The translations under genes were made by a program, and so were the position numbers. From a virus, in the UHGV virus genome UHGV-0038498: a DNA stretch of 64,000 nt; one strand, written 5' to 3'. Within the stretch, counting starts at the first letter, position 1, and each line of letters starts with the position of its first letter. Below the pieces are notes generated by a model. It saw only the letters and a program-made list of their open reading frames with translations, was not told the DNA's origin and did not search any database. This document shows positions 4,320-44,743 of the stretch, piece by piece.

Positions 4320-4700
4320 ATGAAAATCGCTATTTTGGTTATTGCATTGGGTCTTACTGGCTGCGTAGCTCAAGGACCGGTAGTAAATCAATCTGATGTA
4401 GGAAAAATTGTAAACTGTTCAAGCAAATTTTATAATCCTAATGTTAAGTGTTATAAAGAAGCTCCAAAACAGACAGTAGAACAAATGCAGGCGAATTTTG
4501 ACGAAGCTATTCGTCCAGATGAATCTGCTCAAGCATATCGTAATTCAGATGTAATTACACGCGAAGAAAAAATTGAAAACTACTGCGCCGAACTTTGGGC
4601 TAATTGGGCTAATAATTACCAATGGCGTACAGGTAAAAATGCTCCGATGGAGTATGTAGTGAATTCTTATAATTCATGTGTAAAAAATTTGACTAAGTGA
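4320..4700 (+). CDS. Predicted lipoprotein (signal peptide with lipobox LTGC)
   Basis: 126 aa ORF MKIAILVIALGLTGCVAQGP...; SD GAGGAAA upstream; sits between gene 43 and imm. Confidence 0.6.
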   Translation: MKIAILVIALGLTGCVAQGPVVNQSDVGKIVNCSSKFYNPNVKCYKEAPKQTVEQMQANFDEAIRPDESAQAYRNSDVITREEKIENYCAELWANWANNYQWRTGKNAPMEYVVNSYNSCVKNLTK

Positions 4701-4707
4701 GGAAAAC

Positions 4708-4959
4708 ATGGAAACTTTAGTAGCAGGTTCAATTTTTATGGTTTTAGTTTCAGGCGTGTTGGCTATCATTATATACATGCTTCCGTGGTTCATCGCCTTG
4801 ATGCGTGGGTCAAAATCGACAGTAGGAATCTTTTTCACATCTTTACTGTTTAATTGGTCAATTATTGGTTGGTTTATTACATTTATTTGGTCAATTGCGG
4901 GTGAAACTAAAAAATCTGCACAACCGAATCAAGTAATTATCATCAGAGAGAAGGAATGA
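4708..4959 (+). CDS. imm: Superinfection immunity protein Imm
   Basis: 83 aa membrane protein METLVAGSIFMVLVSGVLAIIIYMLPWFIALMRGSKS...; T4 Imm length and sequence. Confidence 0.9.
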   Translation: METLVAGSIFMVLVSGVLAIIIYMLPWFIALMRGSKSTVGIFFTSLLFNWSIIGWFITFIWSIAGETKKSAQPNQVIIIREKE

Positions 4960-5105
4960 AAAGCAAAATTTTAGCAGTATTGCTTTTAATCTTGATGATT
5001 ATAATAAGTATATACTATAGCGTAACGGTTCCTTGTATGATTCCGACACTTATTATAGGTTGGGGTTTATTACTGTTACAAGTTAAATATGAATGTATCA
5101 ATTGA
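4956..5105 (+). CDS. Hypothetical small membrane protein (49 aa)
   Basis: ATG overlaps imm stop (ATGA); translation MKSKILAVLLLILMIIISIYYSVTVPCMIPTLIIGWGLLLLQVKYECIN; not in ORF track (under 60 aa). Confidence 0.4.
   Translation: MKSKILAVLLLILMIIISIYYSVTVPCMIPTLIIGWGLLLLQVKYECIN
4981..5005 (+). promoter_or_regulatory. Candidate MotA-dependent middle promoter for gene 42 (MotA box TGCTT 4981-4985, -10 TATAAT 5000-5005)
   Basis: TGCTT box 19 nt upstream of a TATAAT hexamer, the spacing expected for T4 middle promoters; lies inside the small ORF. Confidence 0.3.
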
Positions 5106-5112
5106 GGTTTAA

Positions 5113-5853
5113 ATGATTAGTGACTCTATGACAGTTGAAGAAATCCGTCTTCATTTGGGGCTTGCATTAAAGGAAAAAGATTTCGTAGTTGATAAAACTG
5201 GCGTTAAAACTATTGAAATTATTGGCGCATCATTTGTAGCAGATGAACCGTTTATTTTTGGCGCTCTTAATGATGAATACATTCAGCGTGAACTTGAATG
5301 GTATAAATCTAAAAGTTTGTTTGTTAAAGATATTCCAGGTGAAACACCGAAGATTTGGCAACAGGTAGCATCTTCTAAAGGCGAAATTAACTCGAATTAT
5401 GGTTGGGCCATCTGGTCAGAAGATAACTATGCTCAGTATGATATGTGTTTAGCTGAACTTGGTCAAAATCCTGATTCTCGACGCGGTATCATGATTTATA
5501 CTCGTCCATCCATGCAGTTTGACTACAATAAAGATGGTATGTCAGATTTCATGTGTACGAATACAGTACAGTACCTGATTCGTGATAAGAAAGTCAATGC
5601 AGTAGTGAGCATGCGTTCAAATGACGTTGTCTTCGGATTCCGTAATGATTATGCATGGCAAAAATACGTACTAGATAAATTAGTATCTGATTTGAATGCA
5701 GGTGATTCAACTCGTCAGTATAAAGCAGGTTCTATTATATGGAATGTTGGAAGTCTTCATGTATATTCTCGTCATTTTTACTTGGTTGATCATTGGTGGA
5801 ATACTGGCGAAACTCATATTGTGAAAAAAGATTATAATGGTGAGTGGAAATGA
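5113..5853 (+). CDS. 42: dCMP hydroxymethylase gp42
   Basis: 246 aa ORF MISDSMTVEEIRLHLGLALKEKDFVVDKTGVKTIEIIGASFVADEPFIFGALNDEYIQRELEWYKSK...; T4 gp42 length and sequence; implies hydroxymethyl-cytosine DNA. Confidence 0.95.
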   Translation: MISDSMTVEEIRLHLGLALKEKDFVVDKTGVKTIEIIGASFVADEPFIFGALNDEYIQRELEWYKSKSLFVKDIPGETPKIWQQVASSKGEINSNYGWAIWSEDNYAQYDMCLAELGQNPDSRRGIMIYTRPSMQFDYNKDGMSDFMCTNTVQYLIRDKKVNAVVSMRSNDVVFGFRNDYAWQKYVLDKLVSDLNAGDSTRQYKAGSIIWNVGSLHVYSRHFYLVDHWWNTGETHIVKKDYNGEWK

Positions 5854-6692
5854 TTCAATTCGTAATTCCAAGCTATCAACGCGTAGGGGCAGTTTCTGCC
5901 CTTGATATGTTTCCGACTGATTATGAACCTCATATTGTAGTACGTGAACACGAAGAAAAAGCTTATTATGACGCTTACGGGTCTAGAGCTAAAATTATAA
6001 CTATTCCTGATGATGTTAACGGAATTGCTGGTACTCGTAAAGCAATTACTGATATGTATGCAGGTCAACGAATTTGGATGATTGATGATGATACTACTAT
6101 TCGTATGAGTTCAATGCGAAAGAAAGATGATCGTCGCTGCGTAGATAAAATTAATCAGTTAACTCGTGAACAGTTCTATGAATTGATTCAATACGTTGAA
6201 GATGCCATGGATTGCGGGTATTATCATGGTCATGCTCGTCTGCCTATTTTTAAAATTACTTCATCTTGGGGTAATTATCGTGAAAATTCATATGGATTTA
6301 CGAATACCTGGTATGACCTCGGAAAACTTACAACAGAACAAATTGGGTATGGAAAAATTGATTTATGCGAAGATATGTATGCATTTCTCAATTTAATTAA
6401 TCAAGGTTATCCGCATTTGGCCTTGTTCAAATATCTGGTTGTATCTGGAAAAGCGCAAGCTCCTGGCGGATGTAGTTCAATTCGTAGTAATTCAAAACAT
6501 AATAGAGCTCTTGAGCAAATCAATAGAGAGTTTCCAGAGCAAGCTCGTTGGAAAACATCGAATATTGAAAAGAGAAAATCGTTGGGTGAAGAAGACGAGC
6601 CATTAAAGGTTCTTCGTATGTGTGTTTCGCGCAAAGAAAAATCAGAAGCGTTTCATAAGTTTAATGCTATTCATCCAATAGCAGTTGATTAA
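5850..6692 (+). CDS. Putative DNA glycosyltransferase (GT-A-like, DxD motif) occupying the beta-gt position
   Basis: 280 aa from ATG 5850 (ATGA overlap with gene 42 stop; track uses GTG 5844); product MIQFVIPSYQRVGAVSALDMF...RIWMIDDDTTIRM...; not similar to T4 beta-gt as I recall it. Confidence 0.55.
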   Translation: MIQFVIPSYQRVGAVSALDMFPTDYEPHIVVREHEEKAYYDAYGSRAKIITIPDDVNGIAGTRKAITDMYAGQRIWMIDDDTTIRMSSMRKKDDRRCVDKINQLTREQFYELIQYVEDAMDCGYYHGHARLPIFKITSSWGNYRENSYGFTNTWYDLGKLTTEQIGYGKIDLCEDMYAFLNLINQGYPHLALFKYLVVSGKAQAPGGCSSIRSNSKHNRALEQINREFPEQARWKTSNIEKRKSLGEEDEPLKVLRMCVSRKEKSEAFHKFNAIHPIAVD

Positions 6693-6747
6693 TGCCTAAA
6701 TTTATTGTGTTATAATTACTCTATCTTTAACCAGTGAGGAAAATATA

Positions 6748-6804
6748 ATGTTGCCTATGGAAAAAATGAATGTCTATTGCAGATTTAAAATCCCGTTTGA
6801 TTAA
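6748..6804 (+). other. Short upstream ORF (18 codons) with strong SD, overlapping the uvsX start in another frame
   Basis: GTGAGGAAAATATA precedes ATG 6748; translation MLPMEKMNVYCRFKIPFD; uvsX ATG at 6770 has only a weak GGA upstream. Confidence 0.25.
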
Positions 6805-7951
6805 AGCTTCCACTTCTAAAATGACTGCTGAACTGACTACATCTAAATTCTTTAATGAAAAGGATGTAATCCGTACAAAAATCCCAATGCTTAATATCGC
6901 TATTTCTGGTGCGATTGATGGTGGTATGCAGTCTGGTTTAACCATTTTTGCAGGTCCTTCTAAACACTTTAAATCAAATATGTCTTTGACTATGGTTGCG
7001 GCGTATTTGAACAAATATCCTGACGCGGTATGTCTATTTTATGATAGCGAATTTGGTATTACTCCAGCTTATTTGCGATCCATGGGAGTTGACCCGGAAC
7101 GAGTAATTCATACACCAATTCAGTCAGTTGAACAGCTGAAAATTGATATGGTGAATCAGCTTGAAGCTATTGAGCGTGGTGAAAAAGTTATTGTATTCAT
7201 CGACTCAATCGGTAATATGGCTTCTAAGAAAGAAACGGAAGATGCCTTGAATGAAAAATCTGTGGCAGATATGACTCGTGCTAAATCACTGAAGTCATTA
7301 TTCCGTATTGTTACTCCTTATTTTAGTATTAAAAACATTCCATGCGTTGCGGTTAACCATACAATTGAAACAATTGAAATGTTTAGTAAAACCGTGATGA
7401 CAGGTGGTACAGGCGTAATGTATTCGGCTGATACCGTATTCATTATCGGTAAGCGCCAGATTAAAGATGGTTCTGATCTTCAGGGGTATCAATTTGTTCT
7501 AAATGTAGAAAAATCTCGTACCGTCAAAGAAAAAAGTAAATTCTTTATTGATGTTAAATTTGACGGTGGTATCGATCCTTATTCTGGATTGTTAGATATG
7601 GCTCTTGAATTAGGATTTGTGGTAAAACCTAAAAATGGCTGGTATGCTCGTGAATTTCTTGATGAAGAAACCGGCGAGATGATTCGCGAAGAAAAATCTT
7701 GGCGTGCAAAAGATACCAACTGCACTACATTCTGGGGTCCTTTATTTAAGCATCAACCATTCCGAGATGCTATTAAACGTGCTTATCAGTTAGGTGCTAT
7801 TGATAGTAATGAAATTGTTGAAGCTGAAGTTGATGAATTGATTAACTCAAAGGTTGAAAAATTTAAATCTCCAGAAAGTAAAAGTAAATCAGCAGCTGAT
7901 TTAGAAACTGACCTAGATCAGTTAAGTGATATGGAAGAATTTAATGAATAA
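6770..7951 (+). CDS. uvsX: Recombinase UvsX (RecA/Rad51-like)
   Basis: 393 aa ORF MSIADLKSRLIKASTSKMTAELTTSKFFNEKDVIRTKIPMLNIAISGAIDGG...; T4 UvsX with a 2-residue N-terminal insertion and scattered substitutions. Confidence 0.92.
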   Translation: MSIADLKSRLIKASTSKMTAELTTSKFFNEKDVIRTKIPMLNIAISGAIDGGMQSGLTIFAGPSKHFKSNMSLTMVAAYLNKYPDAVCLFYDSEFGITPAYLRSMGVDPERVIHTPIQSVEQLKIDMVNQLEAIERGEKVIVFIDSIGNMASKKETEDALNEKSVADMTRAKSLKSLFRIVTPYFSIKNIPCVAVNHTIETIEMFSKTVMTGGTGVMYSADTVFIIGKRQIKDGSDLQGYQFVLNVEKSRTVKEKSKFFIDVKFDGGIDPYSGLLDMALELGFVVKPKNGWYAREFLDEETGEMIREEKSWRAKDTNCTTFWGPLFKHQPFRDAIKRAYQLGAIDSNEIVEAEVDELINSKVEKFKSPESKSKSAADLETDLDQLSDMEEFNE

Positions 7952-35645: not shown

Positions 35646-36103
35646 ACCCATTTATTAATCGTTTAAAAATGCTGAATGTTCCTTTATCTCGTGAAACTCC
35701 AGAAAGTCTTGTTGAAAAATTTAAAGCGCATGGTTATAAATGCACAGAAGAAGATATTCTGAAAGAAGTTCCTGAAATCTGTTGGCAGTCTGCATATTGG
35801 GACGAAAATCAAAAATATCAACGACGAATTGTTTGCGCAGCCAACCGTTTTAAATTAAAAGATGGACGAACTCTTGTTATTCCAGGTGCTCGTCATTATT
35901 CTAAAGATATGGCAGAAGTTTTAGATGTAGTTAAACCTCAATTAGTTACTCAACAAGTTTGTGATGATGACCAAGGGTTTATTGACCAATATAGTAATTA
36001 TTGGACCCGTGAAGAAGCAATGATTATTGCAACTTACGCTGGACAAGTACGTATTGAACGTGGTGGTAGTGAAAAAGAACTTTACTCTGAGGACCTTTAC
36101 TAA
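35642..36103 (+). CDS. Hypothetical protein
   Basis: 153 aa ORF, ATGA overlap. Confidence 0.5.
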
Positions 36104-36399
36104 TGAATATTAAAAAGTTTCAAATTGATGGAATTAAGAATCAAATCCAGGCACTGGAATATGCCAATAAAATGATGTCAACTAATTGGGGAATTTATGC
36201 CAATGAACCGGCATTTCAATTCTGTAATATGGAATTCACCAAAAAGCTCGTAGGAAAAGATTATGTATGTCCATTTAGTTCCCCAATAAATGGAATGCTA
36301 AAACCTGCTTTACGCGATCTTTATATTGCGATGAACGAAGAAATGATAAAAGAACTAAAACGTCAACTGAAGGTGATTCAATTTGGCCAGGGAAATTAA
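36103..36399 (+). CDS. Hypothetical protein
   Basis: 98 aa ORF, overlapping start/stop with neighbour. Confidence 0.5.
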   Translation: MNIKKFQIDGIKNQIQALEYANKMMSTNWGIYANEPAFQFCNMEFTKKLVGKDYVCPFSSPINGMLKPALRDLYIAMNEEMIKELKRQLKVIQFGQGN

Positions 36400-36601
36400 T
36401 TCAAAATCCGATTATTTTAATTCTCTCAATGATAAAGATAAAAATCTAATACGGCATTTTATTGTTGAGATGGGATATACTGACACACGTGATTTAAGAG
36501 AACATATATTTGAATGTGGTGTAGCTAAAAAGTTTTCATTCACATGCAAATGTTTGAGAGAGGTAATTCAGCACTATGAACAATTTAGTCGCAAAACATA
36601 A
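36383..36601 (+). CDS. Hypothetical protein
   Basis: 72 aa ORF; start codon uncertain. Confidence 0.4.
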   Translation: MAREINSKSDYFNSLNDKDKNLIRHFIVEMGYTDTRDLREHIFECGVAKKFSFTCKCLREVIQHYEQFSRKT

Positions 36602-36684
36602 TTTTAATAAAGCTTCTATCCATAAAGATAAGAAGAAAGCGTTTAAAGAATCTAATCGCAAACAGAAACATAAGGGGAAGGTCT

Positions 36685-36963
36685 ATGATTATTGATTCTC
36701 AGTCTGTGGTTCAATACACAATCAAAATTGATATTCTAGAAAAGCTATATAAGTTTCTACCAAATTTATACCACTCAATTGTTAATGAATTAGTTGAAGA
36801 ACTACATCTCGAGAATAATGATTTCTTGGTTGGAACTTATAAAGACCTCTCAAAAGCAGGATATTTTTACGTAATTCCAGCTCCAGGAAAAAGTATTGAT
36901 GATGTATTAAAAACTATAATGATTTATGTCCTTGATTATGAAATTGAAGATTATTTCGAATGA
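36685..36963 (+). CDS. arn: Arn, anti-restriction nuclease (inhibitor of McrBC)
   Basis: 92 aa MIIDSQSVVQYTIKIDILEKLYKFLPNLYHSIVNELVEELHLENNDF...; matches T4 Arn length and position before asiA. Confidence 0.8.
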   Translation: MIIDSQSVVQYTIKIDILEKLYKFLPNLYHSIVNELVEELHLENNDFLVGTYKDLSKAGYFYVIPAPGKSIDDVLKTIMIYVLDYEIEDYFE

Positions 36964-37112
36964 GTCATAATCTTGAAAAAGTAATCGAGCATAATGTAGC
37001 TCAGGAACGTAAGTCGTTCAAGGAATTCGTAGAAAAAATTTTTGAAGAAAATACCACAGACCAGTTTACAAATCAAGCGTCTGATGATATTATAGTAAAG
37101 TCAACTAATTGA
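36960..37112 (+). CDS. Hypothetical small protein (50 aa)
   Basis: ATGA overlap with arn stop; MSHNLEKVIEHNVAQERKSFKEFVEKIFEENTTDQFTNQASDDIIVKSTN. Confidence 0.35.
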   Translation: MSHNLEKVIEHNVAQERKSFKEFVEKIFEENTTDQFTNQASDDIIVKSTN

Positions 37113-37124
37113 GTGGTATAGTTA

Positions 37125-37397
37125 ATGAATAAAAATATTGATACAGTTCGTGAAATTATTACTGTTGCGTCTATTTTAATTAAATTTTCCAGAGAAGATA
37201 TTGTTGAGAATCGTGCTAATTTTATTGCATTTCTGAATGAGATTGGAGTAACGCATGAAGGTAGAAAGTTGAATCAGAATTCATTCCGTAAAATTGTTTC
37301 TGAATTAACTCAAGAAGATAAGAAAACCCTCATCGACGAATTCAACGAGGGTTTTGAGGGTGTATATCGATATCTAGAGATGTATACGAACAAATAA
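37125..37397 (+). CDS. asiA: Anti-sigma-70 factor AsiA
   Basis: 90 aa MNKNIDTVREIITVASILIKFSREDIVENRANFIAFLNEIGVTHEGRKLNQNSFRKIVSELTQEDKKTLIDEFNEGFEGVYRYLEMYTNK; T4 AsiA. Confidence 0.95.
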   Translation: MNKNIDTVREIITVASILIKFSREDIVENRANFIAFLNEIGVTHEGRKLNQNSFRKIVSELTQEDKKTLIDEFNEGFEGVYRYLEMYTNK

Positions 37398-38054
37398 TTA
37401 TTTAGCCCTTCCTAATATTCTGGCCGCCTGAGCACATATTGATTCAAGGCGGTCATTACTTATATGATCATTTCTATACCAGTACATGGTTATTGTTCCA
37501 GCATAGATATTATCCAAATTGAAATATGGACAACTGTACATGTAATTTATTTCGGGAGTAGGCTTTTTAGTCGGTAAAAAAGCAAATTTTGAGTTGGAAT
37601 AATAATGACGTCCATTTAAATGAACTGCATATTCATCCATAGTTTTATCAACAGGATATCCTCCAAGTGATTTTTCACTTATTGTTGAAGGTAATTTTCC
37701 TTCATATGCTATAATATCAACAAAATAGTTTAAGTTTTTAGGGCGGAAAGAATACACCGCACTAAAGTCTGCCTCAGATGATATATGAACTATCTGGAGT
37801 TGTTCCAGGGCGACAGATTCAAAGCGTGCATTTCTTTCCTTTTCAATAATTTCACTGTATGTTTCATACTTTGATTGCTTATAGTACTCAAAGAAACTAT
37901 CTCCCCTATACCAAACAATCGCCATTATAAACAAAAGAATTACGACAGCTACACGGGAAGCAAGAACTTTCCCGGTAGCGTTATCTTTGAACAAGCGATC
38001 TAGAACACCAAACAGAATATCAGAGGGCGAAAATGATATTCTAGGTGCTGCCAT
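37398..38054 (-). CDS. t: Holin T
   Basis: 218 aa MAAPRISFSPSDILFGVLDRLFKDNATGKVLASRVAVVILLFIMAIVWYRGDSFFEYYKQSKYETYSEI...; single TM with large periplasmic domain; T4 T; SD AAGGAGGG. Confidence 0.92.
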   Translation of the reverse strand: MAAPRISFSPSDILFGVLDRLFKDNATGKVLASRVAVVILLFIMAIVWYRGDSFFEYYKQSKYETYSEIIEKERNARFESVALEQLQIVHISSEADFSAVYSFRPKNLNYFVDIIAYEGKLPSTISEKSLGGYPVDKTMDEYAVHLNGRHYYSNSKFAFLPTKKPTPEINYMYSCPYFNLDNIYAGTITMYWYRNDHISNDRLESICAQAARILGRAK

Positions 38055-38085
38055 AGACCCTCCTTTTAAGGATATTTATTCAAAA

Positions 38086-38877
38086 TTATACTCTTGCACC
38101 ATATATTGTACCAACTTTAGTCCAAGTTGGAGCATTACCAGTAACAGCTTTACCTGCTGCGCCACCCGAGTGAACAGTTCCTCCAGTACCACCTTGAATA
38201 TATGAAGATTTGCCCGCAGCCCCCAAATCTCCACCATCTCCTCCATGGTGAACCCCAGAAACAGTACCTTTACCAGGAGCAGAAATTGTAGCGGCAGATG
38301 CTGCCGATGCGCTGCCGCCTGCTGCACCCGCTGCACCAAATGGACGACCTCCGCCGCCACCAAATATCATATCCATTTGGGGGAAAGGATGATATCTAGC
38401 ACCAGCGCCGCCACCACCGCCACCACCGATAATACCATTATTGTTTATTCTTAAACGAGTTCCAATTCCGTTATTTATTGCAGTTCCTCCTGCTCCACCA
38501 GCAGAGTTACTTCCGCCATTTCCTCCTCGACCCAATACATGAACACCACTATTAATATTTAAGGTAACATATGCATTAGTTAATGAGCTAGGAAAATCTA
38601 AGCATGGTTGACCTGTCGATGAAGAAACGATATTGCCTGTAATTGTAATAACAACAGGAGTACTTCCTTGGGCTTTTATCCAATTTATTAGTGTGTCTTT
38701 ATTATAAGAATTGCTAGCACCAATGCTGTAATATACTTCTTTAGATTGTCCGGCCATTGAGCTCATCCAACCAGGAACTGAAACACGAACTGCTTTCATT
38801 GCAGCATCCATCCAACGTTGTCCAGTTTCATTCACGGCAGATTCACCAATCCAGCCAGGAACACCTACAATTGCCAT
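38086..38877 (-). CDS. 38: Receptor-recognising tail-fibre tip adhesin gp38 (T2-type, glycine-rich motifs)
   Basis: 263 aa; conserved N-terminus MAIVGVPGWIGESAVNETGQRWMDAAMKAV... and C-terminal half with poly-Gly blocks (GGGGGGGAG, GGGGRPFG, GGTGGT) separated by variable segments. Confidence 0.85.
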   Translation of the reverse strand: MAIVGVPGWIGESAVNETGQRWMDAAMKAVRVSVPGWMSSMAGQSKEVYYSIGASNSYNKDTLINWIKAQGSTPVVITITGNIVSSSTGQPCLDFPSSLTNAYVTLNINSGVHVLGRGGNGGSNSAGGAGGTAINNGIGTRLRINNNGIIGGGGGGGAGARYHPFPQMDMIFGGGGGRPFGAAGAAGGSASAASAATISAPGKGTVSGVHHGGDGGDLGAAGKSSYIQGGTGGTVHSGGAAGKAVTGNAPTWTKVGTIYGARV

Positions 38878-38888
38878 TAAAAATCCTT

Positions 38889-38906
38889 AGAGGGCCGAAG
38901 CCCTCT
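38889..38906 (-). other. RNA hairpin with UUCG tetraloop between genes 37 and 38 (AGAGGGC-UUCG-GCCCUCU), immediately 5' of the gene 38 SD
   Basis: Perfect 7 bp stem on the minus-strand transcript in the 30 nt intergenic gap. Confidence 0.45.
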
Positions 38907-38907
38907 T

Positions 38908-41900
38908 TTACATAAGTTTAGATTCAAGTTCTTTTACACGAGAAGAAAGTGTTTTCACAGCTTCAACCAGAAGAGCAATCTGGGCTTGAGAAGAAACAGT
39001 GAGTATTTTATTACCCTTGCTATCTTCTGTTTCATGGACAGCTTCTGGTAAAACGTCTTGCAACGTTTGAGCTATAATACCCGCTTCGGTTTGAACAGGT
39101 TCACCGCCTATATATTCAGCTTTGTCATAGATTAAACCATCAAGTTGCTCAACCCTTTCGAGCGCATTTTTAATAGGTTTAAAATTAGATTTCAAGCGAA
39201 CATCAGAACGAATATAAACGTTAGGAGCATTGACGTTTTTCTCGGAATAAACTTCACTTGAGGTGAATCTAACAACTTTAACGTTGTTCGCCCACGCTTC
39301 TAAAAGCCCATCGCCTACTTGTCTAAAACCAGTATCGCTATCACCAATTGCAATGGAGTTACCACCCCAACCGTTGGAGGTATTTACACCAAATGCTCTC
39401 GCAGATCCGCATGATAGTATAGGAGCATAAAATGTTCCATCCATGTCAAAAGTCCAACGAGCCTGTTGCCCCGATGGGTTGTCGCCACGCATGCGAATAA
39501 TACCTTGACGCCAAGTACCAGAAACACCTAACCATCCAAATTCAAATGATTGACGATAGCCCGCGTCAGTTAAAAAACTGTATCCAGAAAATAGCGGGTA
39601 ATAAGCTTGACTTGTCTTGGAAATGCCACCCGTATTCGCTAAGAATGCAGAATTGTCGCGAGTCACATTTGAAATAGCAGAAAAGCTAACACTCCATTGT
39701 CCGGCAGCTTTAACTCGTGAATTAATGTTTCCATTAATAGTAATATCTTTATCAAAAGAAGTATTTTCGCCAAGACGAACAGTACCAGCAGTCATATCGA
39801 TTGAAAACGGTCGTTTTCCATTCCAATCGCCTTCAGTTGCTTTATTATCGCCGTCTGAAGAGTTTTTGTCAGTCAGTAAAATATAGAAGTTTCCACCGTC
39901 ATTTCGAAATAAAACGGAATTAGAACCTGATCTATCAGAATTACTTGTAATACGAATACCAGTTTGGTTATTAATAGCAATTTCTGACTCTGCTACATAA
40001 CGCTTAGGCCCGTTAGGCGTTTTTTGCAAGTTATTCAATATACTTGCAACTTGACCTTGAATTGCCGTCTCAGGAAGTTCAACTGCAGTTTCTGTGGCGC
40101 CGGATGAATCTGAAGCAAATATTTGATTAACATTAGCGTTCGGTGTGGCATAATATGAAACAGCCAACGCCTGGGCGTATGTACCTACATTCACATAGAT
40201 ATCATAAACATCGCCTGATGTATTAACAGTGGCAACGTTTTTAATACCTTGAGCAACATCCAACGACCAAACAACAGCATTAATGCCTTTAGGATTGTTG
40301 TTAGAAGTTCTTAAAACAATTTGCGAAATAACACACTGGTGAGGAGTGGAAACATTATACCCGTTCCCGCCTGAAATTTCAAATTTAATAGTTGAGGTTG
40401 ATTGCGGCATTGTCACCGTTGCTAATTTGTACCAACCGCCAGTACCTGAATAAGAAACCATTCGGGTATTGACTTTACGATCTAATGTCGAGTTCAAGTT
40501 AGCAAAGTTAGGTAATGAACCACCCGTGATATTACCATCAGTACCAATACGAACATTACCAGCACCTAATTTACCAGGAGAGTAAAAATCACCGTTTTTA
40601 TTAAATTCCCAACCTAAATCCTTTATAATCGCGCCAGTAGAACCGCCATCACCACCTTCATGATAATGAACTCTAAAATTACCACCGTTAATTAAAGTAC
40701 CAATAGAATAGCAACTATTATTTTGTACGTATCTCTGTTTAACAATTGGAACATACGTACTTGTATCTGTGCGATTAATATTCATATAGAACGGAGCACG
40801 AACGTTTTCATTATTTTGTGAAGCAAATGAACCAGCCCCCGCAGGTCTAACAGCATCAGTACATTCTACATCGATGTACGACGACTGACCTAACTGCATA
40901 CGGTAATTAGGAGAAATACGACTATGACTAGTAACAACAACAAGTTTATTATCGTTGTCTACAGTAATCATATTGCCGCCTCTGCCGTCATCGCCTAACG
41001 TGACAGAATGACGCATTTGTACCATACCATTATTAAGACTAATACTTAATGGGCGGAGATTACTTATTCCACCACTTTCACCAGCATCTTTAGGAGTCGG
41101 GATAATATGTAATGATGCTTCTGAACGACGGAAAATAGCACCATATTCAGCATTCCAAATTCTTAATGCATCTGCTGTTCCACCAAATTTAGCTTGTCCG
41201 TTTACAGATAATCCATTATTAACATTTAAAGAAGATTCAGTTGTAATAGAACCAGAAGCAACAATACTGCCTGAAGTTAATAAACCACCATTAACTCGAA
41301 ATTGAATAGGTCCGACAGTAGAACCTGATCCGGGAGCAACTCGCTGAGAATAAAAATGGTAACCTTGCCCATCTGATACTTCAAAAACTGTTTCACGGGA
41401 ACGATCGCCAGATGCGTTAAATGAATTACCCCACGCTTTAACAGTTACATAGCTTTTATTCTGCCCAGCACGAGTACCACCTTCCCACAAAATTTGCTTA
41501 GTGCCATCAACCGTAGTAGTTGGAGCGAATGTTAGCCCAGCAGTAGAATTATTAGCTGCTAAATATACACCATTATATATTGAAAGCTGCTTAGTGGATG
41601 TAATACCGCCATCAGCATAAAACATTACATTATTTGCACCGGTTACTATTTTAAGAATACCCGGGTTAACTTCCATGCCTTCTTGGGTATTAATATTAGT
41701 TTTGCCTTTACCACGGAAATAGTGGTTCATTTTTCCGCCTGAGTTATAGCCAATATGTGTCTGGCCGTCTCCAGCAGTGTTTTCATCAGCCTGTGTTTGA
41801 ACTGATAAAAATGCAACATTCGTTCCAGGCATAGTCCATGTTGTACCTTGATCTTCTGAGCGACCAAATATACCTTTACGAGTACTACGGAAACTATCAG

Positions 41901-42891
41901 GCGTAATAGATGCAACGGAATAACCTCCACCAACTAAATCATAAACACCTTGTTTAATATATTTCAGACCAGTTACAGTGTCACCGAGAACAAGATACTT
42001 ATCACCCATTACCCCAGTATTTCCATAATCACTAGACGGGAAACCCGTAGTGAATGTACCTAATGCAAGGCTATTACGGCCAGCTATTCGGCCATCATTA
42101 CGAATACCATATTGTTTAGATTGAGGAGTATTACCAGTCCACCATGACATTTCATCAGCTTGTCCAGTCTGAGCTGTACAGATTTCATGCCACATGGTTC
42201 CGCCTGATTTAGCACGAACTTTACGAAGATAGTTTACTCCGTTAGTTTCACCGGTTCCAGGATAAACATACTGAACCAATGATTGTGAATCGTATTGTCC
42301 AAAGGCTTTAGAATCATGATTAATTAAATTAACACTAATAGTTGGTGTACTAATAGAAGTTAAAGCAGTTAACTTGCGTGCCTGGAAAATACCACCATCA
42401 GTAGAAATGAAATGAAATTCTGAATTTTGAGCCCCTGCTGCGGTTCCTTGACGAACACGCATTGTGATTACGCCTTCATTTTCAGACTGTGGTTTTGAAT
42501 ATAAAACACCTCTCTCCGATCCATCTGTATTTTCAAACCAAAGATGGGCATTGGAAGTATCATTTGTTGCTCTTGCGTAAAATGACCCTCGCATAGATCT
42601 GAAAACTTTTGCAGTTATGCCATCAGTAGAACCAATAGGTCCATTTACGGTCATTCCACCTGTTTGTACATAATCGCCATTTAACCTCAAAAGACCATTG
42701 ATAGTTACATTTCCATCAATTTGACCGCCTTTAGCAATACCTAGATCAATAATATTTCCTGAATCATCTTTAGTAAAAATTGTTCTATCTTTTAAGTTTA
42801 TAGCCAATTCACCTTCGGCTAATACTGAAGCAGCAGGACGTGCACCTGCGGTTTTGCTTCTTTTAAATTGTATTTGTTTTAAAGTAGCCAT
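38908..42891 (-). CDS. 37: Long tail fibre distal subunit gp37 with C-terminal intramolecular chaperone domain
   Basis: 1327 aa; N-terminus [51 protein letters not shown] typical of gp37; C-terminus ...[35 protein letters not shown]...[15 protein letters not shown] resembles auto-cleaving S74-type chaperone domains. Confidence 0.9.
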
Positions 42892-42899
42892 AAGTCCTC

Positions 42900-43565
42900 T
42901 TAATAATAGCCGAAATCTTGAACAGAATCCTTAATTACGATTTGGTCAAATCGCGGAACGTGTGAAGGTTGAGACGCAGGATTCTGCGAGAAAAAGTTTG
43001 GTGCGGTTAAGTTTCCAGTCATAGTGTCTCCTTTACGGAAAACTCTAGAATCCGCATTTGCCGTAACAGTATTTATTGCTCCATCAACATAGTCCTTTCT
43101 AGTAAGGTCATTCACTGCTATAGGAGCAGCCGCATCACTTCTTACTTGACCAGCTGCTGACACAACACCTTTTGTGTTAATATCACCATTACGTGTGTTA
43201 ATTACCACAGTTCGAGCTGCTGAACCTTGTGATGATTTAAAACCAATACCATACCATGAAACAATATCAATATTTGCTGTAGCAAAAGTTGCTGCATCGC
43301 CATTACCTGGATAAATACCGCACGGGTTTGTATTGTTTACAGCATATGGTACTTGAACACCAGCATTAAATGTTACCTTTGACGCAAAAGTACCACCATT
43401 AGCTTTAGAAACGAAATCGTTATCAACAGCTTGTGGTTTATTATATTCTGAATATATTTTAAATGATTTATAGAGTACATCGTCACCGGCTGGATTCAAT
43501 GGAAAATTTCCTTGATGCCAAATGACAGAGCCTCCAGTTGTTGAACCTACTTTTAAATCAGCCAT
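42900..43565 (-). CDS. 36: Long tail fibre distal connector gp36
   Basis: 221 aa [51 protein letters not shown]...; T4 gp36 length. Confidence 0.9.
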
Positions 43566-43588
43566 TGTATGCCCCTTTATTTTAATAG

Positions 43589-43596
43589 TATTTATA
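43589..43596 (-). promoter_or_regulatory. Late promoter TATAAATA (minus strand) for genes 36-37-38
   Basis: Plus-strand TATTTATA = minus TATAAATA, about 25 nt upstream of gene 36 ATG. Confidence 0.55.
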
Positions 43597-43599
43597 AAG

Positions 43600-43625
43600 A
43601 AAAAGGGAACCCGAAGGCTCCCTCA
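43600..43625 (-). terminator. Terminator-like hairpin after gene 35 (minus strand GGGAGCC-UUCG-GGUUCCC + UUUUU)
   Basis: 7 bp stem (one G-U pair), UUCG loop, T5 run on the minus-strand transcript. Confidence 0.55.
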
Positions 43626-43627
43626 AT

Positions 43628-44743
43628 TTATACTTCTCTAAATTCTTGCCCAAACACTTTACCAGTTTTAGACGATGCTTGCGTAGGAAGTACCATTATA
43701 TCCGGAGGTGAAGCAGATTCACAGATATAATTAACACGAATGCCATTGACGCCAAATTCAGCGGGTTTCGAAATACCTCCATTTCTTGACACTTCAGAAA
43801 AGCTTAAATTTCTCATGCCACCTTGACCAGCTTGTGCTGTTCTTTGTGCATATATCGTAAATCCTACAGCGTTTTCTGGAACAACTACATAATCTTCCTT
43901 TAATTCCCAAGACCCAGCTTGCCCGGTAAACTCAGCTTGCGTCGAGGAAATATATCCATTAGATGCGTTATAAAAACGGATGGATATATTTGTAGTTCCA
44001 AGAGCAAGTAAATCGGCATCAGCATATAACTGTGCTTTAAGATAAAGAACATCGCCAGGGATTAAATTATAGTCAGATAATTTACTTATAGCAGCCGAAG
44101 TCGGTAGACGTGCAATTTCGTTATTAGTTCCACCAACTGCCGACATAAATTGCTCAACGCTTTCGTATGTTCTTTTAGGAAATCCCGTAGCTCCAACGTC
44201 TTCTAAACTGTCAAATACAACATCTAAAATAGTTTGATAGTCATCTGTGCTTTTTCTATTACTTAGTTTAACATGCTCCAATGCAATAGCTCTTTTAGAA
44301 GAAGTGTAAAAAGCAGCATATGATACGTCAAATCTTGACAATATAGAATCAGATGGAAAAGCAGACGTTCCTGCGGTTCTCAACCAAGATACTACTTCAG
44401 GAGGAAAATTAACCTTTCCGCTAGTTAATATAGCAACAAGTCTGTTATTCGTCAAAGAATTCATGAAACTAACAAAAGCAGCCGATGTAGTATCATTTGA
44501 AGCCGAAAAAGCATATGACTTACTATCAACTAATGCTCCGGTGGAAGGGTCAAAAACTCTTAAATGAAGTCCTGCGCTAAATGTTTGACTTCCAACAGGA
44601 TTATCCTGAAATTTAACATATGGTCCTGCCGTAGAAAGCGGGCAAGAACCCGCTATACTTATTTTATATCTTACTGAATTACTTTCCGATAAAAATGGCG
44701 TTTGGACATATCCTTGTCCAAACTCTGCCATAAATTTTTCCAT
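43628..44743 (-). CDS. 35: Long tail fibre hinge protein gp35
   Basis: 371 aa MEKFMAEFGQGYVQTPFLSESNSVRYKISIAGSCPLSTAGPYVKF...; T4 gp35 length and position. Confidence 0.85.
   Translation of the reverse strand: MEKFMAEFGQGYVQTPFLSESNSVRYKISIAGSCPLSTAGPYVKFQDNPVGSQTFSAGLHLRVFDPSTGALVDSKSYAFSASNDTTSAAFVSFMNSLTNNRLVAILTSGKVNFPPEVVSWLRTAGTSAFPSDSILSRFDVSYAAFYTSSKRAIALEHVKLSNRKSTDDYQTILDVVFDSLEDVGATGFPKRTYESVEQFMSAVGGTNNEIARLPTSAAISKLSDYNLIPGDVLYLKAQLYADADLLALGTTNISIRFYNASNGYISSTQAEFTGQAGSWELKEDYVVVPENAVGFTIYAQRTAQAGQGGMRNLSFSEVSRNGGISKPAEFGVNGIRVNYICESASPPDIMVLPTQASSKTGKVFGQEFREV

What the first reader, a model, noticed from the sequence alone, without database searches (positions are those of the whole stretch)
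38086..38877. T2-type gp38 adhesin with glycine-rich motifs: the host-range determinant differs from T4
In T4, gp38 is only an assembly chaperone and the receptor is recognised by gp37 itself. Here gp38 has the conserved N-terminal attachment domain (MAIVGVPGWIGESAVNETGQRWMDAAMKAVRVSVPGWMSSMAGQSK...) followed by poly-glycine blocks (GGGGGGGAG, GGGGRPFG, GGTGGT and others) separated by variable segments, the architecture of the T2/S16-type tip adhesin that sits on the gp37 tip and binds OmpF/OmpC/FadL/Tsx-type receptors. The variable segments between Gly blocks set receptor specificity. At the DNA level this is a GC-rich, repetitive GGN tract in an AT-rich genome, a likely recombination hot spot.
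Basis: partly seen in the sequence, partly recalled or inferred. Interest (0 to 1): 0.5.

Follow-up and report, generated by a model that had tools for sequence, protein, structure and literature searches.

The report
T2/S16-type gp38 tail-fibre adhesin gene
This is an ordinary, intact copy of the well-known gp38 tail-fibre tip adhesin found in most T-even phages (T4 itself is the exception); it belongs to an allele group whose tested members all need the E. coli outer-membrane channel Tsx.

Summary
Window 38086-38877 is one 263-aa ORF with exactly the quoted sequence, but it lies on the minus strand. It matches Pfam GP38 and Gp38_N at full length (3.9e-69, 7e-18). It aligns with the S16 gp38 crystal structure (1e-47). 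A confident AlphaFold2 model (pLDDT 92.7) matches only S16 and PP01 gp38 in the PDB. It has no similarity to the T4-type chaperone gp38 (E=15). It sits between a T2-type gp37 and holin t. That gp37 is 1327 aa, with an S16-like tip and a C-terminal self-cleaving chaperone domain.

The allele is 99.2% identical to gp38 of phage SA20RB. Its specificity domain is 95-96% identical to gp38 of Bas43, KIT06 and AV115. These three, plus AV114 of the same published clade, were each shown experimentally to need Tsx. I therefore predict Tsx (about 0.75-0.8).

- A beta-helix domain was omitted.
- 'GGTGGT' lies in variable loop E, not in a conserved glycine motif.
- DNA repeats are only 9-24 nt long.
- The clearest exchanged unit is a ~1.9 kb cassette (gp37 tip plus gp38), shared at 92-100% with a Mosigvirus whose flanks are 65-78% identical.

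Everything here is already known; interest is low.

The parts
38086..38877 (-). Gene 38: 263-aa receptor-recognising adhesin (stop codon 38086-38088)
   Evidence: ORF list. Pfam GP38 3.9e-69 and Gp38_N 7.3e-18. S16 gp38 6f45_D 1e-47. AF2 pLDDT 92.7 and Foldseek TM 0.78-0.88 to 6f45_D and 9v85.
38743..38877 (-). N-terminal attachment domain, residues 1-45. Three short helices (10-18, 23-29, 38-41), each preceded by a conserved Trp (W9, W22, W37)
   Evidence: Gp38_N hit at 1-42. W9, W22 and W37 are invariant in the 14-sequence alignment. Helices are from the model. The three-tryptophan docking mode is described for S16 in PMC6851490.
38533..38742 (-). Central beta-helix region, residues 46-115 (further strands at 134-151 and 245-259 close it)
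   Evidence: Secondary structure of the model. Three-domain description of S16 and PP01 gp38.
38089..38532 (-). C-terminal specificity domain, residues 116-263: conserved glycine-rich motifs alternating with hypervariable loops. 32% Gly, GC 0.507
   Evidence: Composition. Invariant Gly columns in 72 homologues. Fold match to the PP01 receptor-binding domain, TM 0.88, rmsd 2.3.
38485..38532 (-). Glycine-rich motifs GRGGNGG...GGAGG (residues 116-131), enclosing loop A (122-127, GSNSAG; nt 38497-38514)
   Evidence: Invariant G116 R117 G118 G119 G121 G127 G130 G131. Loop A mapped from PP01 W119-I124 through the alignment and PMC12892980.
38407..38427 (-). Longest polyglycine run, G151-G157. It corresponds to the central PGII helix 3 of S16 (151-GGGGGGGG-158)
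   Evidence: It is also the site of the short tandem DNA repeat at 38400-38428.
38365..38394 (-). Receptor loop B (residues 162-171, YHPFPQMDMI)
   Evidence: Mapped from PP01 Q161-V170. Identical in Bas43, KIT06, AV115, SA20RB and ADUt; related to T6-type YYSPFSQMRLT; unlike the OmpA, OmpF and FadL types.
38335..38361 (-). Glycine-rich motif GGGGGRPFG (residues 173-181)
   Evidence: G173-G177, R178, P179, F180 and G181 are invariant in the 14-sequence alignment. In 72 homologues G176, G177, P179 and G181 are invariant, and G174, R178 and F180 are nearly so.
38305..38325 (-). Receptor loop C (residues 185-191, AAGGSAS). It carries the only two residues that differ from SA20RB (S189, S191)
   Evidence: Mapped from PP01 N184-W189. 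Differences listed.
38245..38262 (-). Receptor loop D (residues 206-211, VSGVHH). H211 is Tyr in all Tsx-typed relatives compared
   Evidence: Mapped from PP01 N204-Y209. H211Y in Bas43, KIT06 and AV115.
38176..38196 (-). Receptor loop E (residues 228-234, QGGTGGT), within variable stretch 223-237.
   Evidence: Mapped from PP01 N225-S231. No invariant or nearly invariant column between 223 and 237 in 72 homologues. 2-residue insertion relative to every other receptor type compared.
38889..38906 (-). Intercistronic hairpin AGAGGGC-UUCG-GCCCUCU between the gp37 stop and the gene 38 ribosome-binding site (AAGGA, 38884-38888)
   Evidence: Sequence. Fold. Identical in six relatives (T2, Bas39, ADUt, SA20RB, KIT06; Bas43 differs only outside the stem); Bas45 has one stem mismatch; different stems with preserved pairing in other lineages.
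38908..42891 (-). Gene 37: 1327-aa distal half-fibre, the trimer on whose tip gp38 sits
   Evidence: ORF. Pfam Gp34_trimer and Peptidase_S74. Identical length in ADUt.
38911..39207 (-). gp37 residues 1229-1327: C-terminal intramolecular chaperone (Peptidase_S74), starting at the conserved S-D-V-R-L-K motif. Predicted to be cleaved off to expose the tip
   Evidence: Pfam hit at 1229-1286. SDVRLK at residue 1229. Aligns with SDRRIK of S16 gp37 6f45_A, E 1.6e-9. Motif region YIRSD-RLKSNF invariant in 8 phages apart from V/I at the fourth position of the motif. Cleavage itself is inferred from what is known of T2 and S16.
39208..39950 (-). gp37 distal tip region (about residues 980-1228), co-inherited with gp38 as one cassette
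   Evidence: 92-98% nt identity to Mosigvirus AV115 across this stretch; identity collapses to 38-65% beyond about 39950.
43589..43596 (-). T4-type late promoter TATAAATA, 24 nt upstream of the gene 36 start. Likely drives a 36-37-38 late transcript
   Evidence: Exact match on the coding strand. A promoter is annotated at the same place in SA20RB. Function is inferred.
37398..38054 (-). Gene t (holin), the conserved right-hand flank where divergence between phages drops abruptly
   Evidence: Pfam Phage_holin_T 2e-117. At least 97% nt identity to seven of the eight Tequatrovirus references (Bas38 is the exception at 73.4%) and 75.5% to Mosigvirus AV115.

Best explanation
Gene 38 encodes the monomeric tip adhesin of the long tail fibre, of the T2/T6/S16 kind.

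Proposed mechanism:
1. It is made late in infection, probably from the 36-37-38 transcript.
2. gp37 trimerises with the help of its own C-terminal chaperone domain. That domain then cuts itself off at the S|DVRLK motif (residue 1229).
3. One gp38 molecule caps the exposed trimer tip. Three conserved tryptophans (W9, W22, W37) on three short N-terminal helices insert into three equivalent pockets.
4. A beta-helix carries a three-layer lattice of polyglycine-II helices formed by the conserved glycine-rich motifs.
5. Five variable loops project from the far end of that lattice (A 122-127, B 162-171, C 185-191, D 206-211, E 228-234) and contact the extracellular loops of an outer-membrane beta-barrel.
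6. For this allele the receptor is most probably the nucleoside channel Tsx.

Shown here: family membership, fold, motif and loop layout, gene order, the matching gp37 tip with its chaperone domain, absence of any T4-chaperone similarity, and near-identity to alleles with an experimentally determined receptor.

Inferred: cleavage, docking, loop-receptor contacts, and the receptor itself. My probability for the adhesin identity is about 0.97; for Tsx as the main receptor, about 0.75-0.8.
For: - Family: Pfam GP38 at full length (3.9e-69) plus Gp38_N (7.3e-18).
- Solved structures by sequence: S16 gp38 6f45_D 1e-47 over residues 8-261; PP01 gp38 9v85 9e-31.
- Predicted fold: AF2 model with pLDDT 92.7 and pTM 0.87. 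Foldseek finds only 6f45_D (TM 0.78/0.82) and 9v85 (TM 0.75/0.88); the next hit has E=2.9.
- Conserved residues: W9, W22, W37 and the glycine motifs are invariant across 14 receptor-typed gp38s; most are conserved in 72 homologues.
- Partner: gp37 has Peptidase_S74 at 1229-1286 and aligns with S16 gp37 across the tip and the SD(V/R)R(L/I)K site.
- Gene order: 36-37-38-t-asiA is the same as in T2 and eleven other phages.
- Receptor: the specificity domain is 95% identical to Bas43 and 96% to KIT06. It differs from AV115 at 6 of 148 positions.
  - Bas43 depends on Tsx (BASEL table S5).
  - KIT06 makes no plaques on the Keio delta-tsx strain (PMC11274021).
  - AV114 and AV115 were shown to recognise Tsx (PMC10844046).
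  - All five loops are of the Bas43 type. None shows the OmpA-type loop B deletion or loop D insertion, nor the OmpF- or FadL-type sequences.
Against: - No receptor assay exists for this exact allele or for its two closest relatives, SA20RB and ADUt.
- Compared with every Tsx-typed relative, it differs inside the predicted receptor loops or right beside them: S189G and S191A (loop C), A196G, H211Y (loop D) and D214N.
- In this family very small changes can move specificity. A single Q206L change in HVS3 switches RB51 from OmpF to OmpW (bioRxiv 10.64898/2026.04.02.716166). A few HVS2/3 residues let PST add OmpA to Tsx (PMC3157838).
- The polyglycine-II geometry was not measured on the model. 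It is implied only by the fold match.
- KIT06 also showed weak infection of a btuB-defective strain, so secondary contributions are possible.
Confidence: 0.9

Rival explanations
1. It is the same adhesin, but its receptor is not Tsx, or not only Tsx. The substitutions shared with SA20RB and ADUt (H211, D214, A196) and the two private ones (S189, S191) in loops C and D have shifted or broadened specificity. The target could be another porin, or a Tsx variant of a different host lineage.
For: All five differences from the Tsx-typed alleles lie in or beside predicted receptor loops. Single or few substitutions in these segments are documented to switch or extend receptors. SA20RB was isolated on an O156:H25 STEC strain rather than K-12.
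Against: Loops A, B and E are identical to those of the Tsx-typed KIT06 and AV115. The overall loop set is unmistakably of that type. The loop C changes are conservative (G/A to S in an Ala/Gly/Ser-rich stretch). Four independently tested phages with this loop set, from three laboratories and two genera, all need Tsx.
Confidence: 0.2
2. It is a T4-type gp38: a chaperone for gp37 folding that is absent from the virion, with gp37 itself binding the receptor.
For: Only the gene's name and its position downstream of gene 37.
Against: BLASTP against the T4-type chaperone gp38 of phage FelixPlatter gives E=15 with no meaningful alignment. All family, structure and fold evidence points to the adhesin type. 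The gp37 here ends in a self-cleaving chaperone domain instead of a T4-type needle tip.
Confidence: 0.01
3. The ORF is a decayed or non-functional copy, for example an assembly chimera in a metagenomic contig.
For: The exact protein is known only from unnamed metagenome or assembly contigs. One is 196,677 bp, longer than a ~167 kb T-even genome.
Against: The ORF is intact, of family-typical length, and has a ribosome-binding site. Every invariant family residue is present. It is 99.2% identical to the gp38 of a cultured, plaque-forming phage. The same sequence occurs on three contigs.
Confidence: 0.02

Closest known systems
gp38 of Escherichia phages SA20RB and ADUt (same allele subgroup)
   Same: 99.2% and 98.9% amino-acid identity (2 and 3 differences). 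Same loops, including H211 and D214. ADUt also has an identical gp37 C-terminus and the same gp37 length of 1327 aa.
   Different: S189 and S191 in loop C are Gly and Ala there. SA20RB combines this gp38 with a different gp37 shaft and tip: only 19% of gp37 residues 800-1228 align. No receptor data were found for either phage.
gp38 of Bas43 TadeuszReichstein, KIT06 and AV114/AV115 (experimentally Tsx-dependent)
   Same: Same 90% cluster. Specificity domain 95-96% identical for Bas43, KIT06 and AV115. Loops A and B are identical in these three, and loop E is identical or differs by one residue. Same 263-aa length. AV114 was not aligned here; the source paper places it in the same clade.
   Different: 10-12 substitutions overall, five of them in or near loops C and D (S189G, S191A, A196G, H211Y, D214N). 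AV114 and AV115 are Mosigvirus, so the genomic background differs.
Salmonella phage S16 gp38 (PDB 6F45), the structural archetype
   Same: Three-domain architecture, three docking tryptophans, a long central polyglycine helix, and the same order of motifs and loops. E 1e-47, TM 0.78-0.82.
   Different: Only about 41% identity. Different loops and a different host (Salmonella). S16 is about 14 residues shorter, mainly in loops B and E.
PP01 gp38 receptor-binding domain (PDB 9V85), an OmpC binder
   Same: Beta-helix plus PGII sandwich with loops A-E. TM 0.88 on the target, rmsd 2.2-2.3.
   Different: 40% identity. Loops differ in sequence and length. The PP01 loop E/OmpC contacts cannot be transferred to this protein.
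T6 gp38 and T6-like Tsx binders (Bas35-37)
   Same: Same family and probably the same receptor. Loop B (YYSPF.QM..) and the 'TISAPG' segment are recognisably related.
   Different: Only 54-55% identity overall and 61% in the specificity domain. Loops C, D and E are 20-40% identical. The N-terminal domain is of another type (64-67% over residues 1-45, 31-33% over 46-115) and goes with a short gp37 of about 982-989 aa.
T2 gp38 (FadL/OmpF)
   Same: N-terminal attachment domain 96% identical. Same long gp37 with chaperone domain, same intergenic hairpin, same gene order.
   Different: Specificity domain only 49% identical, with loops 0-13% identical apart from loop A, so the receptor differs.
T4 gp38 (chaperone)
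   Same: Gene name and map position only.
   Different: Unrelated sequence (E=15 against the T4-type protein of FelixPlatter). 183 aa against 263 aa. Not a virion component.

Membership tests
T2/T6/S16-type gp38 adhesin (Pfam PF05268 GP38 + PF21721 Gp38_N) | Sequence matches both family profiles above the curated cut-offs | tested here: met
   GP38 233.2 bits (cut-off 25), profile positions 1-218 of 218. Gp38_N 64.7 bits (cut-off 25).
T2/T6/S16-type gp38 adhesin (Pfam PF05268 GP38 + PF21721 Gp38_N) | N-terminal attachment domain with three conserved tryptophans at the apices of three helices | tested here: met
   W9, W22 and W37 are invariant in 14 typed gp38s. Each directly precedes a predicted helix (10-18, 23-29, 38-41). 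The feature is defined in PMC6851490.
T2/T6/S16-type gp38 adhesin (Pfam PF05268 GP38 + PF21721 Gp38_N) | Beta-helix plus polyglycine-II sandwich fold | tested here: met
   AF2 pLDDT 92.7. Foldseek hits only 6f45_D and 9v85 (TM 0.75-0.88, E down to 7.5e-23). Backbone angles of the PGII helices were not measured.
T2/T6/S16-type gp38 adhesin (Pfam PF05268 GP38 + PF21721 Gp38_N) | Conserved glycine-rich motifs alternating with hypervariable segments, plus a conserved C-terminal end | tested here: met
   Invariant Gly columns at 116-131, 155-157, 176-181, 202, 215 and 239 in 72 homologues; no conserved columns in 158-172, 185-201 or 223-237. The codon-level scan shows divergence confined to about residues 141-240.
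T2/T6/S16-type gp38 adhesin (Pfam PF05268 GP38 + PF21721 Gp38_N) | Encoded directly downstream of a gp37 whose C-terminus is an S16/T2-type tip followed by a removable intramolecular chaperone | tested here: met
   gp37 stop at 38908, gene 38 start at 38877. Peptidase_S74 at 1229-1286. Match to 6f45_A, E 1.6e-9. Motif conserved in 8 phages.
T2/T6/S16-type gp38 adhesin (Pfam PF05268 GP38 + PF21721 Gp38_N) | Present in the virion at the fibre tip and necessary for adsorption | not testable with these tools
   Needs virion proteomics, immuno-EM or genetics. Known for T2, T6 and S16 from the literature.
Tsx-binding gp38 alleles, Bas43/KIT06/AV115 subtype | Same set of five receptor loops as experimentally Tsx-dependent phages | tested here: met
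   Loops A and B are 100% identical to Bas43 and KIT06. Loop E is 93-100%, loop D 89% and loop C 73-80% identical. AV115 has 6 differences in the specificity domain.
Tsx-binding gp38 alleles, Bas43/KIT06/AV115 subtype | Infection abolished on a tsx deletion host | not testable with these tools
   Shown for Bas43, KIT06, AV114 and AV115 in the literature. Never tested for this allele, SA20RB or ADUt.
OmpA-binding gp38 (Bas45 / Krischvirus JSE type) | Short loop B (GN-----RG.L), 'EGSL' insertion in loop D, loop E 'GRCNTQG--NGTEYN' | tested here: not met
   None of these features is present in the window protein.
T4-type gp38 (tail-fibre assembly chaperone) | Sequence similarity to the T4-type 183-aa protein | tested here: not met
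   BLASTP against the FelixPlatter chaperone gp38 gives a best E of 15. No Pfam family other than the adhesin ones is hit.

The most novel reading that the evidence does not exclude
The H211/D214/A196 variant of loops C and D (shared with SA20RB and ADUt), together with the private S189/S191 changes, marks a sub-allele whose receptor use has moved away from K-12 Tsx. It might target a Tsx loop variant of particular wild E. coli lineages, or add a second porin. That would be a natural few-residue specificity shift within an otherwise Tsx-typed clade.
Probability: 0.15. Interest if true: 0.3.

Novelty: already known. Interest (0 to 1): 0.1.

Why it matters
It matters little beyond correct annotation. 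gp38 adhesins have been known since the 1980s, two crystal structures exist, and recent work already predicts receptors from gp38 similarity.

The practical value is twofold. First, this metagenome-derived T-even phage can be annotated as a probable Tsx user. That helps when choosing phages with non-overlapping receptors for cocktails. Second, the locus gives a clean example of the gp37-tip-plus-gp38 cassette moving between Tequatrovirus and Mosigvirus.

Many database records of this same allele are still labelled 'tail assembly protein' or 'distal long tail fiber assembly catalyst'. That is the T4 function, not the function of this protein.

Tried and rejected
1. T4-type chaperone reading. 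Tested by direct BLASTP against the chaperone gp38 of FelixPlatter and rejected.
2. OmpA-type allele. This was prompted by the statement that Krischvirus AV108 (OmpA) resembles the AV109/114/115 adhesins apart from HVS3/4. Alignment with Krischvirus JSE-type and Bas45 proteins shows a different loop set, so it was rejected. AV108 itself was not fetched.
3. A long repetitive DNA array in the glycine region. Only short imperfect repeats were found.
4. A known structured RNA around the gene. No Rfam family reaches threshold in 36000-44000. The intergenic hairpin folds well, but the 56-nt context is only modestly better than shuffles (z = -1.8). Its support comes from conservation instead.
5. Receptor data for the two nearest relatives. 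The literature search found papers on SA20RB and ADUt; their listed titles and abstracts mention no receptor work, and I did not read them in full.
6. Overlapping ORFs, on the plus strand (38245-38454, 37987-38205, 38757-38915) and in another minus-strand frame (38076-38363). They have no support and are the expected by-product of a stop-poor, GC-rich Gly/Ala-codon stretch.
7. Modelling a gp38-Tsx complex was not possible with the tools available, which predict single chains only.
Full report
OBSERVATION. Window 38086-38877 holds a single ATG-started ORF of 263 codons plus stop. It lies on the minus strand; the plus strand of the same coordinates is full of stops. It contains the blocks GGGGGGGAG (151-159), GGGGRPFG (174-181) and GGTGGT (229-234).

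WHAT IT IS. The protein matches both Pfam adhesin families. GP38 (PF05268) scores 3.9e-69 across all 218 profile positions, and Gp38_N (PF21721) scores 7.3e-18. Against the PDB by sequence, it hits the Salmonella phage S16 gp38 of the gp37-gp38 tip complex (6f45_D, 1e-47, residues 8-261). It also hits the PP01 gp38 receptor-binding domain (9v85, 9e-31). An AlphaFold2 model built on 72 homologues is confident (pLDDT 92.7, pTM 0.87). Foldseek against the PDB finds only those two structures (TM 0.75-0.88), and the next hit has E = 2.9. BLASTP against the T4-type chaperone gp38 of phage FelixPlatter gives E = 15. This is therefore the adhesin kind of gp38, not the T4 kind.

ANATOMY. The published S16 and PP01 structures define three parts: an attachment domain, a beta-helix, and a polyglycine-II sandwich with five distal loops.
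- Residues 1-45 form three short helices (10-18, 23-29, 38-41). Each is preceded by a tryptophan (W9, W22, W37) that is invariant in 14 receptor-typed gp38s.
- Residues 116-263 are 32% glycine.
- In 72 homologues the invariant columns cluster in G116-G131, G155-G157, G176-G181, G202, G215 and G239. Stretches 158-172, 185-201 and 223-237 have no conserved column.
- Carrying the PP01 loop definitions through the alignment gives loop A 122-127 (GSNSAG), B 162-171 (YHPFPQMDMI), C 185-191 (AAGGSAS), D 206-211 (VSGVHH) and E 228-234 (QGGTGGT).

PARTNER AND CONTEXT. Directly upstream on the same strand is a 1327-aa gp37 (38908-42891). It carries a Peptidase_S74 intramolecular chaperone at residues 1229-1286, and the conserved S-D-V-R-L-K motif starts at residue 1229. 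Its last ~150 residues align with S16 gp37 (6f45_A, 1.6e-9), including the tip and the equivalent SDRRIK site. The motif region is invariant in eight phages apart from V/I at one position. Holin t follows downstream (37398-38054). The order 36-37-38-t-asiA matches T2 and eleven other phages. A TATAAATA late promoter lies on the coding strand 24 nt upstream of gene 36 (43589-43596). A 7-bp hairpin with a UUCG loop separates the gp37 stop from the gene 38 ribosome-binding site (38889-38906). The inferred mechanism is as follows. gp37 trimerises and sheds its chaperone domain. One gp38 docks on the tip through the three tryptophans. The five loops then engage the extracellular loops of a porin. 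Cleavage, docking and contacts are inferred from T2, S16 and PP01, not shown here.

WHICH RECEPTOR. The window comes from a Tequatrovirus. Its best match is phage ADUt, at 95.4% identity over 20 kb. The exact gp38 protein occurs on three unnamed contigs, one of which is from an ENA metagenome assembly. The nearest named alleles are SA20RB (2 differences, S189G and S191A) and ADUt (3 differences). No receptor data were found for either.

The same 90% cluster contains phages with experimentally determined receptors:
- Bas43 TadeuszReichstein uses Tsx (BASEL table S5).
- KIT06 makes no plaques on the Keio delta-tsx strain.
- AV114 and AV115 were shown to recognise Tsx.

Identity of the specificity domain to receptor-typed references:
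- Bas43 95%, KIT06 96%, and 6 of 148 positions different from AV115.
- Bas39 (Tsx) 72%.
- Bas45 (OmpA) 65%.
- T6-like Tsx binders 61%.
- T2 (FadL) 49%.
- Bas38 (OmpF) 41%.

The OmpA-type hallmarks (short loop B, EGSL insertion in loop D) are absent. I therefore predict Tsx.

The prediction has a clear caveat. The window differs from every Tsx-typed relative at S189, S191, A196, H211 and D214, all in or beside loops C and D. In this family a single HVS3 substitution can switch receptor (RB51 Q206L, OmpF to OmpW), and a few residues can add OmpA to Tsx (PST versus T6). I put Tsx at about 0.75-0.8.

'T2-type' is accurate only for the attachment domain, which is 96% identical to T2 over residues 1-45. 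The T2-like N-terminal type travels with long gp37s of 1260-1341 aa. The T6-like type travels with gp37s of 982-1082 aa.

DNA-LEVEL CLAIMS. GC enrichment is confirmed: window 0.356, gene 0.452, C-terminal domain 0.507, peak 0.56. Repetition is modest. There are three tandem arrays of about 2.3 copies, and direct repeats of 14-24 nt at 73-93% identity to their reference copies.

Recombination is well supported for the locus. Seven of the eight Tequatrovirus references compared are at least 97% identical in t and asiA; Bas38 is the exception at about 73%. Identity falls to 66-75% in the gp38 C-terminal domain for phages with other loop sets, and gp37 is patchy. A codon-level scan shows a variable block at about residues 141-240, bounded by near-identical ends.

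The clearest case is Mosigvirus AV115. It is only 65-78% identical to the window in gp52, motA, asiA, t and gp35. Yet it is 92-100% identical from about 38060 to about 39950, which covers gp37 residues ~980-1327 plus gp38. The exchanged unit seen here is therefore the gp37 tip plus gp38. It is bounded by the gp37 shaft and the gp38/t junction. I found no breakpoint inside the GGN tract. The literature reports both flank-preferred exchange and one crossover from HVS2 onwards.

COMPARISON AND NOVELTY. Every element is already described:
- the adhesin and its glycine-rich motif and hypervariable-segment layout (PMC3157838);
- the fold (6F45, 9V85);
- receptor prediction from gp38 similarity (PMC12032242 and the 2026 preprint);
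- the plasticity of this locus.

The allele itself is in public databases and is 99% identical to that of cultured phages. The finding is correct but ordinary. The only open point is the receptor consequence of five loop-proximal substitutions.

LIMITS. No complex modelling or wet test was possible. PGII geometry was not measured on the model. The loop boundaries are transferred by alignment from PP01, which is 40% identical. AV108 itself was not examined.

Noticed in passing
window 38889-38906 (minus strand); loci L001-L012 at the gp37/gp38 junction: An intercistronic hairpin AGAGGGC-UUCG-GCCCUCU lies between the gp37 stop and the gene 38 ribosome-binding site. Its stem and loop are identical in T2, Bas39, Bas43, ADUt, SA20RB and KIT06. 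Bas45 has one stem mismatch (GTCCC). Other lineages keep a hairpin at this spot with different, still-pairing stems: GGGCC-UUCG-GGCCC in Bas38, GGGGC-UUCG-GCCCC in T4-type Bas40, and GGGGG-AAAUR-CCCCC in Bas35-37. From my own knowledge, C(UUCG)G hairpins are a known feature of T4 intercistronic regions. No Rfam family matched.
   Followed up: partly
window 38060-39950 versus L014 (AV115) 4650-6830: A ~1.9 kb cassette (gp37 residues ~980-1327 plus gp38) is 92-100% identical between this Tequatrovirus and Mosigvirus AV115. The flanking genes (t, asiA, motA, gp52, gp35) are only 65-78% identical. This indicates a cross-genus transfer of the whole fibre-tip module.
   Followed up: yes
L006 (Bas38 AugustSocin) 5224-6156 versus window 37125-38054: Bas38 is classified as a Tequatrovirus, and its motA and gp52 are 96-98% identical to the window. 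Its holin t and asiA are only 73-74% identical, the same level as Mosigvirus AV115. The mosaic patch in that phage appears to extend beyond gp38 into t and asiA.
   Followed up: no
window 43589-43596 (minus strand): An exact T4 late-promoter consensus, TATAAATA, lies 24 nt upstream of the gene 36 start, in the gp35-gp36 gap. A promoter is annotated at the same place in SA20RB. The motif as such is not enriched in the window (4 found, 9.7 expected).
   Followed up: partly
window 38765-38778 and 38849-38862: A 14-nt direct repeat (93% identical) encodes the duplicated motif VPGW(I/M) at gp38 residues 6-10 and 34-38. These copies carry two of the three docking tryptophans. This hints at an internal duplication in the attachment domain.
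   Followed up: no
window 39208-39510; alignment A3: The gp37 tip just upstream of the cleavage motif comes in at least two versions: [13 protein letters not shown] in the window and ADUt (KIT06 has ...LLEVW), and GIKQNGDGLLDIY in Bas43, Bas39, Bas45 and T2 (SA20RB has GIKQSGDGLLDII). These versions do not track the gp38 allele. SA20RB has nearly the same gp38 but a different gp37 tip and shaft.
   Followed up: partly
L013 = ENA ERZ27287477 contig k141_40467: The contig carrying this exact gp38 is 196,677 bp, about 30 kb longer than typical T-even genomes (164-170 kb among the relatives seen here). Possible causes are assembly through a circularly permuted or terminally redundant genome, or a chimeric assembly.
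   Followed up: no
public records listed: Many deposited records of this same adhesin allele are annotated 'tail assembly protein', 'distal long tail fiber assembly catalyst' or 'hypothetical protein'. The first two carry over the function of the unrelated T4 gp38.
   Followed up: no
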